Positions 1,489-55,212 of a DNA stretch of 64,000 bases are shown piece after piece; position 1 is the first letter of the stretch, and the number at the start of each line of letters is the position of its first letter. The notes under the pieces are model-generated. The model was not told the DNA's origin and made no database searches. It saw only the letters and a program-made list of their open reading frames with translations. The DNA is from Promethearchaeota archaeon. GTDB lineage: Archaea; Asgardarchaeota; Heimdallarchaeia; Hodarchaeales; Hodarchaeaceae. The position numbers and the translations under genes are program-made. Where the stretch lies: the NCBI GenBank assembly GCA_048938105.1, contig JBHLMN010000016.1:1-64000 (forward strand), given 5' to 3'.

Positions 1489-2499
1489 TTGAAGTTGGAG
1501 GATCTTGCAGAAGCTGCTATTGCTGCAGGGGATACTCTCCCAAGACTAGACAAATTAGATCTTGCTAGCATTGAACGTTTAACTGAATCAGCCATTGAAC
1601 ATGAGAATCTTCCTGCATTGATGTCTCTAGCTAAAATCAATAAATATGCTGTTTCAAATACGTTAAACACTGATCGATTAGTCTCTTTAGGCCGTGTTGC
1701 TGGATCAGGGGGTATTTATACTCCTCGCCTCTATTTTGTCATGAGAGGTACCCTTGATCTTAAACGTAGAAAGATCTTGAAACGACTAACACGAACATCC
1801 ATATTAAAATTATCACTTCGAATTGCTTCAGAAGGCTTAAGAGGAGACTTACCCGTCCGAGGTGAATATCAACCTGAAAGCGATTTTGACTTAGATGCGA
1901 CCATGGATCAGTTATTGGAAAAATATCCAACTGGTATTCCCACTTTGAGGAGAAGTGATATCGTCGGTATTGAACGGCGTGAAAGGAAAAAGAATGGAGT
2001 ACTTATTCTTGATGCTAGTGGATCAATGATGGGGGAGCGGAATATTAATGCAGCTTTATCTGCTGCGGTTATGGCTTATTCAATGCGAAAAGATCAGTTT
2101 GGGGTCATTGCTTTTAATACGAAAGCTTTCTTGATTAAGGGAATCAAAGATGACCTTACAATAAAGGAAATTATGGATAAAATTTTAGATTTAGAAGCAG
2201 TGGGGTATACCAATATTGAAGATGGCTTAAGAATGGGGGCACTTCAATTACAGGGCTTAAAAACACGATTTAAATGGGCCATTTTACTAACTGATGGAGC
2301 CTATAATAAAGGGGATGACCCAAGGTACTTGTGTAGGAAATTTGAAAAGCTGCACATTATCAATCTCCCAGGAGGAAAGAAATGGGGAGAGCGTGTATGT
2401 AAAGATTTAGCAAGGCTTGGAGGTGGGCGATATGTTGTTGTTAGAAGTTACCATGAAGTTCCCAGGGCACTGATGAAGATTCTTAGAACTCCTTGGTGA
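1489..2499 (+). CDS. VWA (MIDAS) domain protein; probably also or mainly the C-terminal part of an AAA-VWA frameshift fusion
   Basis: DASGS MIDAS motif, GYTNI threonine, LLTDG aspartate; only a TTG start. Confidence 0.88.
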   Translation: MKLEDLAEAAIAAGDTLPRLDKLDLASIERLTESAIEHENLPALMSLAKINKYAVSNTLNTDRLVSLGRVAGSGGIYTPRLYFVMRGTLDLKRRKILKRLTRTSILKLSLRIASEGLRGDLPVRGEYQPESDFDLDATMDQLLEKYPTGIPTLRRSDIVGIERRERKKNGVLILDASGSMMGERNINAALSAAVMAYSMRKDQFGVIAFNTKAFLIKGIKDDLTIKEIMDKILDLEAVGYTNIEDGLRMGALQLQGLKTRFKWAILLTDGAYNKGDDPRYLCRKFEKLHIINLPGGKKWGERVCKDLARLGGGRYVVVRSYHEVPRALMKILRTPW

Positions 2500-3223
2500 G
2501 AACCTGTTGTAACCGATCGGGATAATTAGTGAGTATCCCATCCACTCCTAAATGCTTCACCCTTTTCATTTCATCGGGTTCATCAGCATAAAAGTAGAAC
2601 ACTCTAATGTCATTCTTATGGCATTTATTCAAAAAAGAAGGTTCAAGTGCTGATGGACGTATTTGAGCAGTTTTTAGATCTAACTCTTTCAACAACCTGA
2701 AATATTCATTCGGTGTTCGCTCCTTTTGCAATAATGCGTAATCAATATTTGGTTCTTTTTCTTGTAATCTGCTAATGTTTTCAATATATCTAGCTGTTAT
2801 TACAGTTTTATCTTCTATTTTGTATTTCTTAACTGTGTTGATGATCTCATTTTCAAACCAATCCGAGTTCTGGTCATAAAACTTCAATTCAATGTTATAT
2901 TGGATATTTGAGTATGATGATTTTTCTAACACCTCTGAGAGTGTGGGGATTTTCTCTCCTTTAAATTTTTGATCGAACCAGCTCCCTGCATCTAAAGACC
3001 TTAGATAATCAACTGTTAGGTCTGGTATCTTTCCTTTACCATTAGTTGTTCTTTCTATCCCATTACGATCATGGTATACAATGAGCTGAGAATCTTTAGA
3101 AGGTTGAACATCAAATTCTATCATGTCAGCAAAGATTATACCCTGTTCGAAACATGCAAGAGTATTTTCAGGAGCTAAACCTGCGCCTCCCCGATGAGCT
3201 ATGTTTAAGACCATTTTTATCAC
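2483..3223 (-). CDS. Glycerophosphodiester phosphodiesterase (GDPD)
   Basis: AHRGG, PENT, IEFDV, HD, NIELK and GILTNYP motifs. Confidence 0.92.
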   Translation of the reverse strand: MIKMVLNIAHRGGAGLAPENTLACFEQGIIFADMIEFDVQPSKDSQLIVYHDRNGIERTTNGKGKIPDLTVDYLRSLDAGSWFDQKFKGEKIPTLSEVLEKSSYSNIQYNIELKFYDQNSDWFENEIINTVKKYKIEDKTVITARYIENISRLQEKEPNIDYALLQKERTPNEYFRLLKELDLKTAQIRPSALEPSFLNKCHKNDIRVFYFYADEPDEMKRVKHLGVDGILTNYPDRLQQVLTKEF

Positions 3224-48738: not shown

Positions 48739-49074
48739 ATGAGTTCAGATCTTGAAGGATGGTTTAATCTTCCTAAATCAATCAAATTGCTGGATATCTC
48801 TCTTATTGGCTATGGTTTCATCTTGATCATTGCCATATTATTATATATGAGCGTACTTGACCATACTGTACAGAATTTGATGCCTATATTTCTTACAGCC
48901 ATACTTTTGTTGATCACATGGAATTTTCGGACACAATTATCAAAAACACATATATCAAAAGAAGAATTTGACCCTGGAGTCCAAAAACGATACTTTCTCG
49001 AATGGTTCATTATTTGCCTGCTTATTATTGTGATTATAGGAGTTATTCTCATTGTTTATCCAGTAACATATTAA
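48739..49074 (+). CDS. Small 3-TM membrane protein
   Basis: Three hydrophobic stretches; SD-like GAGG upstream. Confidence 0.65.
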   Translation: MSSDLEGWFNLPKSIKLLDISLIGYGFILIIAILLYMSVLDHTVQNLMPIFLTAILLLITWNFRTQLSKTHISKEEFDPGVQKRYFLEWFIICLLIIVIIGVILIVYPVTY

Positions 49075-49176: not shown

Positions 49177-49257
49177 ACATTCGCTGTATGATGATGTTAT
49201 CCCCGGATGAGTTGTGTATCAACAATGAATATATGAAGAGCCGTCTGAAGTGAATGT
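49177..49257 (+). ncRNA. Dual-guide box C/D sRNA targeting the LSU rRNA peptidyl-transferase region
   Basis: C box ATGATGA 49188-49194, D' ATGA 49207-49210, D CTGA 49245-49248, 9-bp terminal stem; guides complementary to CCGGGGAUAACA and CGGCUCUUC. Confidence 0.85.
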
Positions 49258-49300: not shown

Positions 49301-49585
49301 ATGAAGAAGGACTTATTAGAAATTCTAGCCTGTCCAATATGCAAGAACCCCGAATTGGAATTATACATCTTTAAAGAGGATGGGGTCGAAATTGAAACTG
49401 GACTTATTGTTTGTTCAGAGTGTAATCGCTTTTATCCAATCAAAGGTACAATACCAGTTATGTTACCAGATGATTTGAGAAAAAAGGATGAAGATCTAAA
49501 ATTTCTTAGATCTAATCAGGAAAAAATTCCAGCTAAGGTTCTTACTGAAGGAAAACCTTTTTCATTGGCTAGCACTCAAAAATAA
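49301..49585 (+). CDS. Trm112 family methyltransferase activator
   Basis: LLEILACPICK...G-x-x-x-C-x-x-C-x-R-x-YPI-x-x-x-IP-x-ML. Confidence 0.9.
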   Translation: MKKDLLEILACPICKNPELELYIFKEDGVEIETGLIVCSECNRFYPIKGTIPVMLPDDLRKKDEDLKFLRSNQEKIPAKVLTEGKPFSLASTQK

Positions 49586-49690: not shown

Positions 49691-49795
49691 TAGCCCCGCC
49701 CAGAATATCGCAAATAAGCATATGATGTGCTCTTGATTCGAACTGGGGTCTCGAGGACCAAAACCTCGTATGATGGTCCGCTACACTACGGGGCT
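49691..49795 (-). tRNA. tRNA-Gln(TTG) with T-loop intron (59/60, 49705-49736)
   Basis: AGCCCCG/CGGGGCT acceptor (A1-U72), CGAGG-TTTTGGT-CCTCG arm; removing 32 nt restores TTCGAAT. Confidence 0.9.
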
Positions 49796-52888: not shown

Positions 52889-54403
52889 GTGACATCTAGG
52901 TTTCTTCAAGCTGTTCGGCCATTCATGTCAATAACCCCAGAAGTCGTTAAACCTACTCGGGAGGTGCATTTTAATGAAAAAATGGTCTGGACATTTGCTG
53001 CTCTTGTTATTTATTTTGTGATGGCATCAACACCGATTATTGGAGCTGATTTAGGAGAGAGTGACCCTTTTGCCTTTATGCGGACAATCACAGCTTCAAC
53101 TCAAGGATCCTTAGCTGAACTTGGAATTGGCCCTATAGTGACAGCGGGACTCATTATGCAGATCTTGGTGGGATCTAAAATTATTAATGTAAATATGGGG
53201 GATCCAGAAGAGAGATCTCTCTATACTGGTGCCCAAAAGGTCATGTCAGTAGCAATGACGATTATAGAGGCATCTGCTTTCTTAATTGGAGGAACCTATG
53301 GAACTGATCTCGACCCTGGAAGTCAATTAGCAATAATTACCCAATTATTAGCAGCAGGCATCATCATCATTCTACTTGATGAAATGATTCAGAAAGGGTG
53401 GGGTTTAGGATCAGGAATCTCCCTTTTTATTGCAGGAGGCGTTGGCTTACAAATTTTCCAAGGATTATTTGCAGCACAGCCTGTTGGGGAAGGATCACTT
53501 GATCCGGACTCCATGGTGACCTCATTTCGAGGGATTGCTTTTGCATTTTTCGCTTGGGCAACACAACGAGGGCCAATTGAAGCAATAGGAGCCCTATTTT
53601 TCCGCTATAGTCCATCTGAGAATGTAAATCTTCCTTCCTTATCTCTCCTCTCTGTTATTGCGACTATTGTTGTGTTTATCATTGTGATCTATTTTGAATC
53701 AATGCGGATTGAAATACCAATCTCTTATGCCCAATATAAGGGGATCCGTTCAACCTATCCTATTAAGCTCCTTTATGTATCAAATATCCCTGTTATCCTA
53801 ACTTCGGCCGTATTCGCCGATATCTACTTTATCGCTCAAATGGTCTGGAATACGGTCGGTAGACAAAATCCAAATAATCCTATAGCTGCTTTTTTAGGAA
53901 CATTTAGGATTGATGAAGCTTCTAATCAGTATGTTCCTATGGGGGGTCTTGTTTATTTCTTAACCCCCCCACGATCGCTTATTGGAGATCTTGGGGTTAT
54001 TAATCCTAGTGATCCATTGAGTTCCTTAGCTCGTGCTTTTATTTATGCTGCTATTCTAATTGTACTTTCTGTCATTTTTTCAGTTATGTGGTTAGAAACA
54101 GCTGGAATGGGGCCGCGTGATGTAGCAAGCCAGTTCTTACAATCAGGAATGCAGATGCCAGGTTGGCGTCGAAGCAAAAAGATTGTTGAACGCCGATTAG
54201 AGATGTATATTCCTACAATAGCTGTAATCGGTGGGTTATTCATTGGTTGTCTTGCAGCCTTTGCTGATTTCCTTGGAGCAATCGGTTCGGGGATGGGTAT
54301 TCTCCTCTCAGTTAGTATTATGAGACAATATTTTGAATTAATAAGTAAGGAAAGAGTCGCAGAAATGAATCCTGCTTTACGTGGTTTCCTAGGAATATCC
54401 TAG
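52889..54403 (+). CDS. secY: SecY/Sec61-alpha
   Basis: LAELGIGPIVTAGLIMQ, LLDE-x-x-x-KGWGLGSGISLFI, YPIKLLYVSNIP; GTG start after GGAGG. Confidence 0.98.
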   Translation: MTSRFLQAVRPFMSITPEVVKPTREVHFNEKMVWTFAALVIYFVMASTPIIGADLGESDPFAFMRTITASTQGSLAELGIGPIVTAGLIMQILVGSKIINVNMGDPEERSLYTGAQKVMSVAMTIIEASAFLIGGTYGTDLDPGSQLAIITQLLAAGIIIILLDEMIQKGWGLGSGISLFIAGGVGLQIFQGLFAAQPVGEGSLDPDSMVTSFRGIAFAFFAWATQRGPIEAIGALFFRYSPSENVNLPSLSLLSVIATIVVFIIVIYFESMRIEIPISYAQYKGIRSTYPIKLLYVSNIPVILTSAVFADIYFIAQMVWNTVGRQNPNNPIAAFLGTFRIDEASNQYVPMGGLVYFLTPPRSLIGDLGVINPSDPLSSLARAFIYAAILIVLSVIFSVMWLETAGMGPRDVASQFLQSGMQMPGWRRSKKIVERRLEMYIPTIAVIGGLFIGCLAAFADFLGAIGSGMGILLSVSIMRQYFELISKERVAEMNPALRGFLGIS

Positions 54404-54432
54404 TTATTTTTTTCATTTTCTATTTATTAATC

Positions 54433-55212
54433 TTAATCAATGAAGCGAATTTGGATTCGATCACCAGGAGTAATGTCTAAAATATCTACTGCTCTACCAT
54501 TTCGAAGACTGATTTCTAATGTTTCAAAGCTACTAAGAACGAGAAAAGGATTTTCATCAGAACCTTCAAAGTAACTTCTCTTAAACCTTAATGACACTCT
54601 AGTCCTTGGCGTTAATAATAGATACTTTTTGTCATGTTGTAGATTCATTGAACTGGGAATGTTGGTTATAATATTACCAAAATGATCGATAAAGATAACT
54701 TCTCCAGTCTTTGTCGTCTTATCCCAAAAGAAATCTAAGGAAGTTTGAATGTCGCTGGGAGGGCCTAGACCATTAAGTGAATAAATCTGACTGAGGTTCC
54801 CCGCTGCAGGAGCAAATACATCTCGTCCATGAAAAGTGTGAGAAGTATCATTAGGGATTTGAAGATCAACAATAAAAACATCCTCATTATCGGAGATGAT
54901 AGGTGATAAAACACCATTATCAGGTCCAATGAAGTAATAATCCTCTTTTTGGGCAGCGATTGCTTTCCTAGAGCTACCAACCCCAGGGTCTACAACAACT
55001 AAAAAAATTGTATGAAGAGGAAAATATTTGTATGATTTCAACAAAACAAATGCAGCATGACGAATATCTTGTGTTTTAATATTATTAGTAAGTGAAATAA
55101 TTCTAACTAAGGGATTAATTTGAAGAATTCTCCCTTTCATTATACCAACATAAGGATCACTGCCAAAATCTGTTATAAAAACAATAAGGGGATTTTTTAA
55201 GGCCTCAATCAG
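54433..55212 (-). CDS. SAM hydroxide adenosyltransferase / chlorinase-fluorinase family (DUF62), extended to a CTG start
   Basis: ITDFG-x-D-x-Y lies upstream of the annotated ATG; VVDPGVGS, GPDNG, TFHGRDVFAP, IDHFGN. Confidence 0.88.
   Translation of the reverse strand: MIEALKNPLIVFITDFGSDPYVGIMKGRILQINPLVRIISLTNNIKTQDIRHAAFVLLKSYKYFPLHTIFLVVVDPGVGSSRKAIAAQKEDYYFIGPDNGVLSPIISDNEDVFIVDLQIPNDTSHTFHGRDVFAPAAGNLSQIYSLNGLGPPSDIQTSLDFFWDKTTKTGEVIFIDHFGNIITNIPSSMNLQHDKKYLLLTPRTRVSLRFKRSYFEGSDENPFLVLSSFETLEISLRNGRAVDILDITPGDRIQIRFID

What the first reader, a model, noticed from the sequence alone, without database searches (positions are those of the whole stretch)
49177..49257. Eukaryote-style box C/D sRNA with two guides aimed at the peptidyl-transferase centre
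Seen: C box ATGATGA, guide TGTTATCCCCGG (49195-49206), D' ATGA, internal stem GTTG/CAAC with a degenerate C', guide GAAGAGCCG (49235-49243), D box CTGA, and a 9-bp terminal stem ACATTCGCT/AGTGAATGT. Known (recalled rRNA sequence and numbering): the guides complement the conserved LSU segments CCGGGGAUAACA (E. coli 2442-2453) and CGGCUCUUC (2507-2515, archaeal/eukaryotic version). The D+5 rule predicts 2'-O-methylation at G2446 and C2510, which as I recall correspond to the yeast snR38/human SNORD1 and human SNORD49 targets. Inference: one Asgard sRNA may carry the ancestors of two eukaryotic snoRNA guides, with snoRNA-like architecture (terminal stem, degenerate C') rather than a compact archaeal K-loop. 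It lies just upstream of trm112.
Basis: partly seen in the sequence, partly recalled or inferred. Interest (0 to 1): 0.85.

Follow-up and report, generated by a model that had tools for sequence, protein, structure and literature searches.

The report
Hodarchaeal two-guide rRNA methylation RNA
This is a real, conserved small guide RNA of an Asgard (Hodarchaeales) archaeon, built to direct sugar methylation of two nucleotides at the ribosome's catalytic centre that eukaryotes also methylate; a published Methanopyrus guide RNA has the same pair of targets and the same layout, so it is a good new example of a known kind and not a demonstrated ancestor of eukaryotic snoRNAs.

Summary
Confirmed: an unannotated box C/D sRNA at 49177-49257 (+), between a membrane-protein gene and trm112. 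Both guide cores are invariant in 16 genomes of the genus while the flanks diverge. The best rRNA matches give 23S G2446 (D' guide) and C2510 (D guide), equivalent to the snR38/SNORD1 and U49/SNORD49 sites. Guides and rRNA change together in Thorarchaeia. Fibrillarin, Nop5 and L7Ae genes are present.

Corrections: (1) this lineage's 23S has G2448, not A, so the D' duplex holds one G-U pair, and G2446 itself is not assembled in this genome; (2) the 9-bp terminal stem is particular to this genome (median 5 bp); (3) the 'eukaryote-style, Asgard' reading is not supported. Methanopyrus kandleri sR7 (Dennis 2015) has the same two guides in the same order and a terminal stem, stems between D' and C' are common in Methanopyrus, and the G2446 guide occurs across archaea. 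Likeness to snoR38 and SNORD49 is confined to boxes and guides, far below Rfam cut-offs. Expression and methylation are untested. The scan reported this RNA family before in other Hodarchaeales and Thorarchaeia genomes. New member of a known kind.

The parts
49177..49257 (+). box C/D sRNA gene, widest extent; conserved core 49181-49253 (about 73 nt; 61 nt from box C to box D)
49177..49185 (+). 5' arm of terminal stem; only the inner 4-5 bp are conserved in the genus
49188..49194 (+). box C (ATGATGA, consensus)
49195..49206 (+). D' guide; invariant core 49196-49205; C49202 (+5) pairs with 23S G2446; U49200 pairs with G2448 as a G-U wobble in this lineage
49207..49210 (+). box D' (ATGA; only the GA is invariant in the genus)
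49211..49223 (+). internal hairpin GTTG / 5-nt loop / CAAC closing the C'/D' motif; 4 pairs intact and invariant in 16 of 16; other stems at the same place in other Asgard groups
49225..49231 (+). box C' (ATGAATA; first TGA invariant, second GA absent), after a one-base spacer
49232..49244 (+). D guide; 9 Watson-Crick pairs from 49235-49243 with this genome's own 23S 2507-2515; G49240 (+5) pairs with C2510
49245..49248 (+). box D (CTGA, invariant)
49249..49257 (+). 3' arm of terminal stem
48739..49074 (+). upstream neighbour: 111-aa hydrophobic protein with no Pfam match; syntenic in all 16 intact copies in the genus
49301..49585 (+). downstream neighbour: trm112 (PF03966, E 3e-12); syntenic in the genus only

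Best explanation
The locus encodes a roughly 70-80-nt archaeal double-guide box C/D sRNA. Inferred mechanism: boxes C/D and C'/D' form two kink-turns, the inner one closed by a 4-6-bp hairpin; L7Ae, Nop5 and fibrillarin assemble on them; the D' guide pairs with pre-23S 2442-2453 (10-12 bp with one G-U at 2448) and the D guide with 2507-2515 (9 bp); fibrillarin 2'-O-methylates G2446 and C2510, 64 nt apart, in the peptidyl-transferase region before that region folds. Shown here: sequence layout, conservation, complementarity, guide-rRNA co-variation between lineages, presence of the protein genes. Inferred from the known archaeal mechanism: expression, RNP assembly, methylation, and co-transcription with the flanking genes.
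For: Unique best rRNA match for each guide: 12 bp versus at most 7 for the next, and 9 bp versus at most 6. D-guide target is in this genome's own 23S on contig C8. Invariant guides with divergent flanks in 16 genomes. Same dual guide in 53 of 399 Asgard genomes with 0 control hits (a 54th hit lacks boxes). Compensatory changes: where 23S has A2444 the guide has U (G309, G311, G334); where it has G2448 the guide of G309 and G334 has C; where 2515-2516 read CC, GG or GA the D guide follows. Terminal and internal stems keep pairing with different sequences in different Asgard groups. Fibrillarin and Nop5 genes adjacent on C38, L7Ae-family gene on C46. A sequenced M. kandleri sRNA (sR7, RNA-seq coverage 5100) has the same predicted targets.
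Against: No expression or methylation data for this organism. G2446 is not in this assembly: contig C8 begins at A2450, so the D' target is taken from relatives about 97% identical in the adjoining segment. The D' duplex has a G-U two bases from the target, and the D duplex is only 9 bp, the lower limit used by Dennis et al.. Two genomes of the genus hold only half-copies (G012, G020), so the RNA may be dispensable or those copies misassembled. No covariation within the genus: the internal stem never varies.
Confidence: 0.87

Rival explanations
1. The RNA binds both rRNA segments, but only one guide (or neither) leads to efficient methylation; its main role is to chaperone folding of the peptidyl-transferase region.
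For: G-U pair near the D' target and a 9-bp D duplex; Thorarchaeia copies carry a fixed mismatch at -3 of the D guide; Dennis et al. propose chaperone roles and describe non-methylating guides.
Against: The +5 pair is Watson-Crick in every genome where sRNA and rRNA could be compared; both registers are those of active eukaryotic guides; G-U pairs are accepted in double-guide predictions.
Confidence: 0.1
2. This dual-guide RNA is the orthologue of an Asgard ancestor's sRNA that was split in early eukaryotes into snR38/SNORD1 and U49/SNORD49. This concerns history and is compatible with the best explanation of function.
For: Same two sites and registers as the eukaryotic guides; present in Hodarchaeales, Thorarchaeia and one Lokiarchaeota genome, and not above chance in 301 Thermoproteota and 40 Methanococci-group genomes searched; the guide keeps U opposite position 2448, as the snoR38 consensus does, although this lineage's rRNA has G there.
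Against: Same pair in M. kandleri; G2446 guide with other partners in Nanoarchaeota, Woesearchaeota, Methanothermococcus and Thermogymnomonas; not found with these patterns in the other 60 or so Heimdallarchaeia nor in 135 genomes of the largest Asgard family sampled; no likeness to the snoRNAs outside boxes and guides; the SNORD49 consensus has this guide at D', here it is at D; Hoeppner and Poole (PMC3511168) and Dennis et al. warn that shared guides can be convergent.
Confidence: 0.15
3. It is a cis element of the trm112 mRNA leader: an L7Ae-bound kink-turn that regulates trm112 translation, with the rRNA matches incidental.
For: It ends 10-50 nt before the trm112 start in every intact copy in the genus; L7Ae binding to mRNA leaders is described in archaea (PMC5539422, abstract only).
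Against: The same dual-guide RNA lies next to other genes in Thorarchaeia and Lokiarchaeota (no trm112 match in those loci); guides co-vary with rRNA. A side effect on trm112 expression is not excluded.
Confidence: 0.03
4. Chance arrangement of common motifs in an AT-rich intergenic region.
For: No Rfam family reaches its cut-off.
Against: Control scans give no such locus; invariant guides in 16 genomes; 0 control hits in 399 genomes.
Confidence: 0.005

Closest known systems
Methanopyrus kandleri C/D box sRNA sR7 (MKAsR7; Dennis et al. 2015, PMC4644070, Additional file 1)
   Same: D' guide to alignment position G2720 (E. coli G2446) and D guide to C2784 (E. coli C2510); same order and +5 registers; 4-bp terminal stem with a one-base spacer before box C; spacer between D' and C' longer than a minimal K-loop.
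   Different: GC-rich; near-consensus C' box; 8-nt D'-C' spacer against 14 nt here; D box CGGA; distant euryarchaeal host. Orthology versus convergence is not resolved.
Other archaeal sRNAs for one of the two sites: Methanococcus maripaludis sR101 (G2446, D'), Ignicoccus hospitalis sR414 (G2446, D) and sR473 (C2510, D), Nanoarchaeum equitans sR03 (similar D' guide)
   Same: Same target nucleotide and near-identical guide.
   Different: Paired with a different second guide or none; compact D'-C' spacer.
Eukaryotic snR38 / SNORD1 / snoR38Y (Rfam RF00213)
   Same: D' guide to the same nucleotide (yeast Gm2815, human Gm4392, Arabidopsis Gm2816), same register.
   Different: Single guide, longer spacer between C box and guide; score 22.2 bits against a cut-off of 45; no likeness outside boxes and guide.
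Eukaryotic U49 / SNORD49 (Rfam RF00277; RF01425 snoR121 has a similar guide at box D)
   Same: Guide to the same nucleotide (human Cm4456, Arabidopsis Cm2880), same register.
   Different: Guide at D' in the SNORD49 consensus, with U instead of A at -6; 10.5 bits against a cut-off of 37; no yeast counterpart is listed for this site.

Membership tests
Archaeal double-guide box C/D sRNA | Terminal boxes C (RUGAUGA) and D (CUGA) able to form a kink-turn | tested here: met
   Consensus boxes, conserved in 16 genomes, with a 3-9-bp terminal stem
Archaeal double-guide box C/D sRNA | Internal D' and C' boxes with tandem G-A pairs | tested here: met
   GA of D' and TGA of C' invariant; other positions degenerate; closed by a hairpin
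Archaeal double-guide box C/D sRNA | Two guides of 10-13 nt, each with at least 9 bp to rRNA and a Watson-Crick pair at +5 | tested here: met
   12-nt and 13-nt guides; 12 bp (one G-U; target from close relatives) and 9 bp (own 23S)
Archaeal double-guide box C/D sRNA | Two targets within 100 nt of each other | tested here: met
   64 nt apart
Archaeal double-guide box C/D sRNA | Host encodes L7Ae, Nop5 and fibrillarin | tested here: met
Archaeal double-guide box C/D sRNA | Expressed as a discrete small RNA bound by L7Ae | not testable with these tools
   No RNA run was listed for this stretch
Archaeal double-guide box C/D sRNA | Targets are 2'-O-methylated in vivo | not testable with these tools
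   Needs RiboMeth-seq, mass spectrometry or cryo-EM
Rfam snoR38 (RF00213; snR38/SNORD1) | Score at or above the family cut-off of 45 bits | tested here: not met
   22.2 bits, E 0.094 on 106 nt
Rfam snoR38 (RF00213; snR38/SNORD1) | D' guide to the G equivalent to yeast G2815 | tested here: met
   Same guide and register
Rfam SNORD49 (RF00277) | Score at or above the family cut-off of 37 bits, guide at D' | tested here: not met
   10.5 bits; guide at D
Rfam SNORD49 (RF00277) | Guide to the C equivalent to human C4456 | tested here: met
   Same register
Orthologue of M. kandleri sR7 | Same two targets in the same guide positions | tested here: met
Orthologue of M. kandleri sR7 | Common descent (non-guide similarity, synteny, continuous distribution) | tested here: inconclusive
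   Some Thorarchaeia copies share the GACC/GGTC terminal stem with sR7, but the pair was not found in the Thermoproteota and Methanococci-group genomes searched; Methanopyrus synteny not examined

The most novel reading that the evidence does not exclude
The G2446 + C2510 dual-guide sRNA of Hodarchaeales, Thorarchaeia and some Lokiarchaeota descends from one RNA of the Asgard ancestor (possibly older, shared with Methanopyrus) and is the true precursor of both snR38/SNORD1 and U49/SNORD49; the guide's U opposite rRNA G2448 is a relic of the A that eukaryotes keep. This would be a traceable archaeal-eukaryotic orthology of individual guide RNAs, which earlier surveys could not establish.
Probability: 0.15. 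Interest if true: 0.7.

Novelty: new member of a known kind. Interest (0 to 1): 0.33.

Why it matters
It gives two precise, testable predictions (Gm2446 and Cm2510) for the ribosome of Hodarchaeales, an order proposed as the closest relatives of eukaryotes, for which I found no published C/D sRNA or rRNA methylation map in the papers searched. With the other guides in this genome it suggests that several eukaryote-conserved methylation sites already exist in Asgard archaea. Whether individual snoRNAs descend from archaeal sRNAs is an open question (PMC3511168), and this family with its co-varying targets is useful material for it. By itself it does not settle the question, because the same pair of guides occurs in Methanopyrus and guide likeness is forced by the target.

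Tried and rejected
Pairing the D' guide with this genome's own 23S: not possible, the assembly lacks about 1423-2449 and contig C8 starts at A2450. I considered an intron at 2449 as the cause of the break; six related 23S sequences have none there, so it is not supported, though two of them may be spliced RNA. Expression: no RNA holder was listed; this is no evidence either way and read laying was not used. Rfam: no family reaches its cut-off. My first structure string was out of register and model R1 was built on it and never used; in the corrected count only the internal helix is in register, so terminal stems were measured per sequence instead. A single-guide scan with 10 perfect pairs found nothing above controls and misses this RNA by design. 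Alternative targets: no 16S site above 7 bp and no better tRNA site among the 20 tRNAs ARAGORN called; the 16S G132 side target listed for related guides in other archaea does not match here. Promoter scan is for sigma-70 sites and is uninformative; I saw no conserved TATA box upstream in the genus. No 23S was found in the single-contig relatives G007, G009, G015. Pattern searches in 301 Thermoproteota and 40 Methanococci-group genomes gave 1 hit against 2 control hits; exact patterns miss variant guides, so this is 'not found', not absence. Literature searches found no report of an Asgard C/D sRNA catalogue or of measured Gm2446/Cm2510 in archaea; the library is incomplete.

Full report
Observation. 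It lies in the 226-nt gap between a 111-aa hydrophobic ORF (48739-49074) and trm112 (49301-49585, PF03966) and is single-copy in the genome. No Rfam family reaches its cut-off.

Host. The sRNAs of genus members G009 and G005 are identical to those in records titled Heimdallarchaeota bin6 and Hodarchaeota CSMAG_10, so the genome is very probably a member of Hodarchaeales. It encodes fibrillarin and Nop5 side by side on C38 and an L7Ae-family protein on C46.

Is it chance? No. A scan of the whole genome for C-D'-C'-D layouts whose two guides both match the rRNA gave three loci, two with targets close together; seven reversed or shuffled target sets gave at most one locus and none with close targets. 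In 16 of 21 genomes of the genus an intact copy lies between the same two genes; both guide cores, the D box and the arms of the internal hairpin are invariant, while flanks are 40-64% identical. Two further genomes hold half-copies.

Targets. The D guide forms 9 Watson-Crick pairs with this genome's own 23S on contig C8, placing the +5 base on C2510. The D' target is mostly missing from the assembly, because C8 begins at A2450. Each site is the clear best match in 16S plus 23S. The two sites are 64 nt apart. The Arabidopsis RiboMethSeq table (PMC8583080) lists Gm2816 (AtsnoR38Y; human Gm4392, yeast Gm2815) and Cm2880 (AtU49; human Cm4456, no yeast site), also 64 nt apart, and the Rfam consensus guides of snoR38 and SNORD49 align with the two guides in the same register.

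Distribution and co-variation. A looser pattern finds the same dual guide in 54 of 399 Asgard genomes with no control hits; one hit lacks boxes. The true hits are this genus (16), two neighbouring families (36 genomes, the larger shown to be Thorarchaeota) and one Lokiarchaeota genome. Where sRNA and 23S come from the same genome, the guides follow the rRNA: U opposite A2444, C opposite G2448 in G309 and G334, and a D guide that tracks CC, GG or GA at 2515-2516. Terminal and internal stems also keep pairing with different sequences. This is the strongest evidence available here that these are the real targets. The pair was not found with these patterns in the other Heimdallarchaeia, in most other Asgard families, in 301 Thermoproteota or in 40 Methanococci-group genomes. 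The link to trm112 is limited to this genus.

Mechanism. [quoted passage not shown] Here the C'/D' motif is a stem-closed kink-turn: hairpin, three unpaired bases, then the tandem G-A pairs. Both targets lie in the peptidyl-transferase region, so pairing most likely happens on pre-23S, and simultaneous binding may help folding, as proposed for double-guide sRNAs. Expression, assembly and methylation are inferred, not shown; no RNA run was listed.

Comparison with what is known. The catalogue of Dennis et al. 2015 (PMC4644070) lists Methanopyrus kandleri sR7 with D' target 23S G2720 and D target C2784. The E. coli row of their alignment has no gaps there and the offset is 274, so these are G2446 and C2510. 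sR7 also has a 4-bp terminal stem, and many M. kandleri sRNAs have a hairpin between D' and C'. M. maripaludis sR101 and I. hospitalis sR414 target G2446, and I. hospitalis sR473 targets C2510. A genome-collection scan found the C box-G2446 guide-D' unit in Nanoarchaeota, Woesearchaeota, Methanothermococcus, Thermogymnomonas, Marsarchaeota and Desulfurococcales-type genomes, with other second guides where these could be read. So neither the targets, nor their pairing, nor the architecture is peculiar to Asgard archaea. The 9-bp terminal stem is a feature of this genome; the genus median is 5 bp. The degenerate C' is real in this genus, but Thorarchaeia copies have a near-consensus C' and a degenerate C box instead, so it is not a lineage-wide step towards snoRNAs.

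Ancestry. Likeness to snoR38 and SNORD49 is limited to boxes and guides (22.2 and 10.5 bits against cut-offs of 45 and 37). Hoeppner and Poole (PMC3511168) found that such likeness cannot separate common descent from convergence, and Dennis et al. describe guides being reshuffled between sRNAs. The wide archaeal spread of the G2446 guide makes an old origin of that site plausible. The specific claim that this dual RNA is the precursor of both snoRNAs stays possible but unsupported (about 15%).

Earlier scan notes. I found sR7 before reading them. They report the same RNA family in other Hodarchaeales and Thorarchaeia genomes with the same conclusion, and their Thorarchaeia guide variant led me to widen my patterns.

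Verdict. A real and well-supported guide RNA, a new member of a known kind. Interest 0.33.

Noticed in passing
window 49691-49795 (-): tRNA-Gln(UUG) with an intron of about 31 nt in the T arm, missed by ARAGORN. Relatives carry introns at other places (anticodon loop; D arm plus anticodon loop), so intron position varies within the genus. ARAGORN calls only 20 tRNAs in this 99%-complete genome, which suggests many more non-canonical introns.
   Followed up: partly
G000:C9 about 2437-3187 (-): 751-nt insertion in the 16S rRNA gene near E. coli position 788, AT-rich and apparently protein-coding (possible homing endonuclease; not tested).
   Followed up: no
G000:C8 about 54309-54628 (-); L084, L110, L113, L177: 320-nt insertion in the 23S gene near E. 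coli 2577 whose ends can pair; relatives have 44-75-nt insertions near 2478. rRNA genes of this lineage are rich in introns.
   Followed up: no
G000:C8 27636-28081, 46249-46678 and shorter pieces at 9.7, 10.6, 25.1, 42.0, 43.5, 50.7, 52.1 kb; C52 482647-482753: Diverged (75-94%) copies of the 3' end of the 23S gene are scattered along contig C8; similar lone 3' pieces occur in G001 and G010. Could be remnants of repeated integration or duplication at the rRNA 3' end.
   Followed up: no
L111 and L109 (metagenome contigs): The 3' end of 23S precedes its 5' end in these contigs, as expected of a circular pre-23S intermediate or circularly permuted 23S, if the contigs derive from RNA. Known in other archaea.
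   Followed up: no
G000:C11 91567 (+) and C11 4060 (-): Two more dual-guide C/D sRNA candidates. The first points to 23S A1913 and G1945 by my reading of the E. coli numbering, the second to G2251 with one G-U pair. Both were noted earlier by the scan.
   Followed up: partly
L006:1100-1200 (G012) and L011:1374-1463 (G020): Half-copies of this sRNA: G012 has the 5' part on the opposite strand with the D guide cut short; G020 has lost box C and part of the D' guide. Natural breaks or assembly errors.
   Followed up: partly
L165-L176 (Thorarchaeia and a neighbouring family): All these copies have a fixed A-G mismatch at position -3 of the D guide, and most have a degenerate C box with a near-consensus C' box, the reverse of the pattern in this genus.
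   Followed up: no
G001:C57 (L082/L085) and G006:C310 (L083): rRNA contigs that do not match the genus: an unrelated archaeal 23S in G001 and a bacterial-type 23S in G006, probably bin contamination.
   Followed up: no
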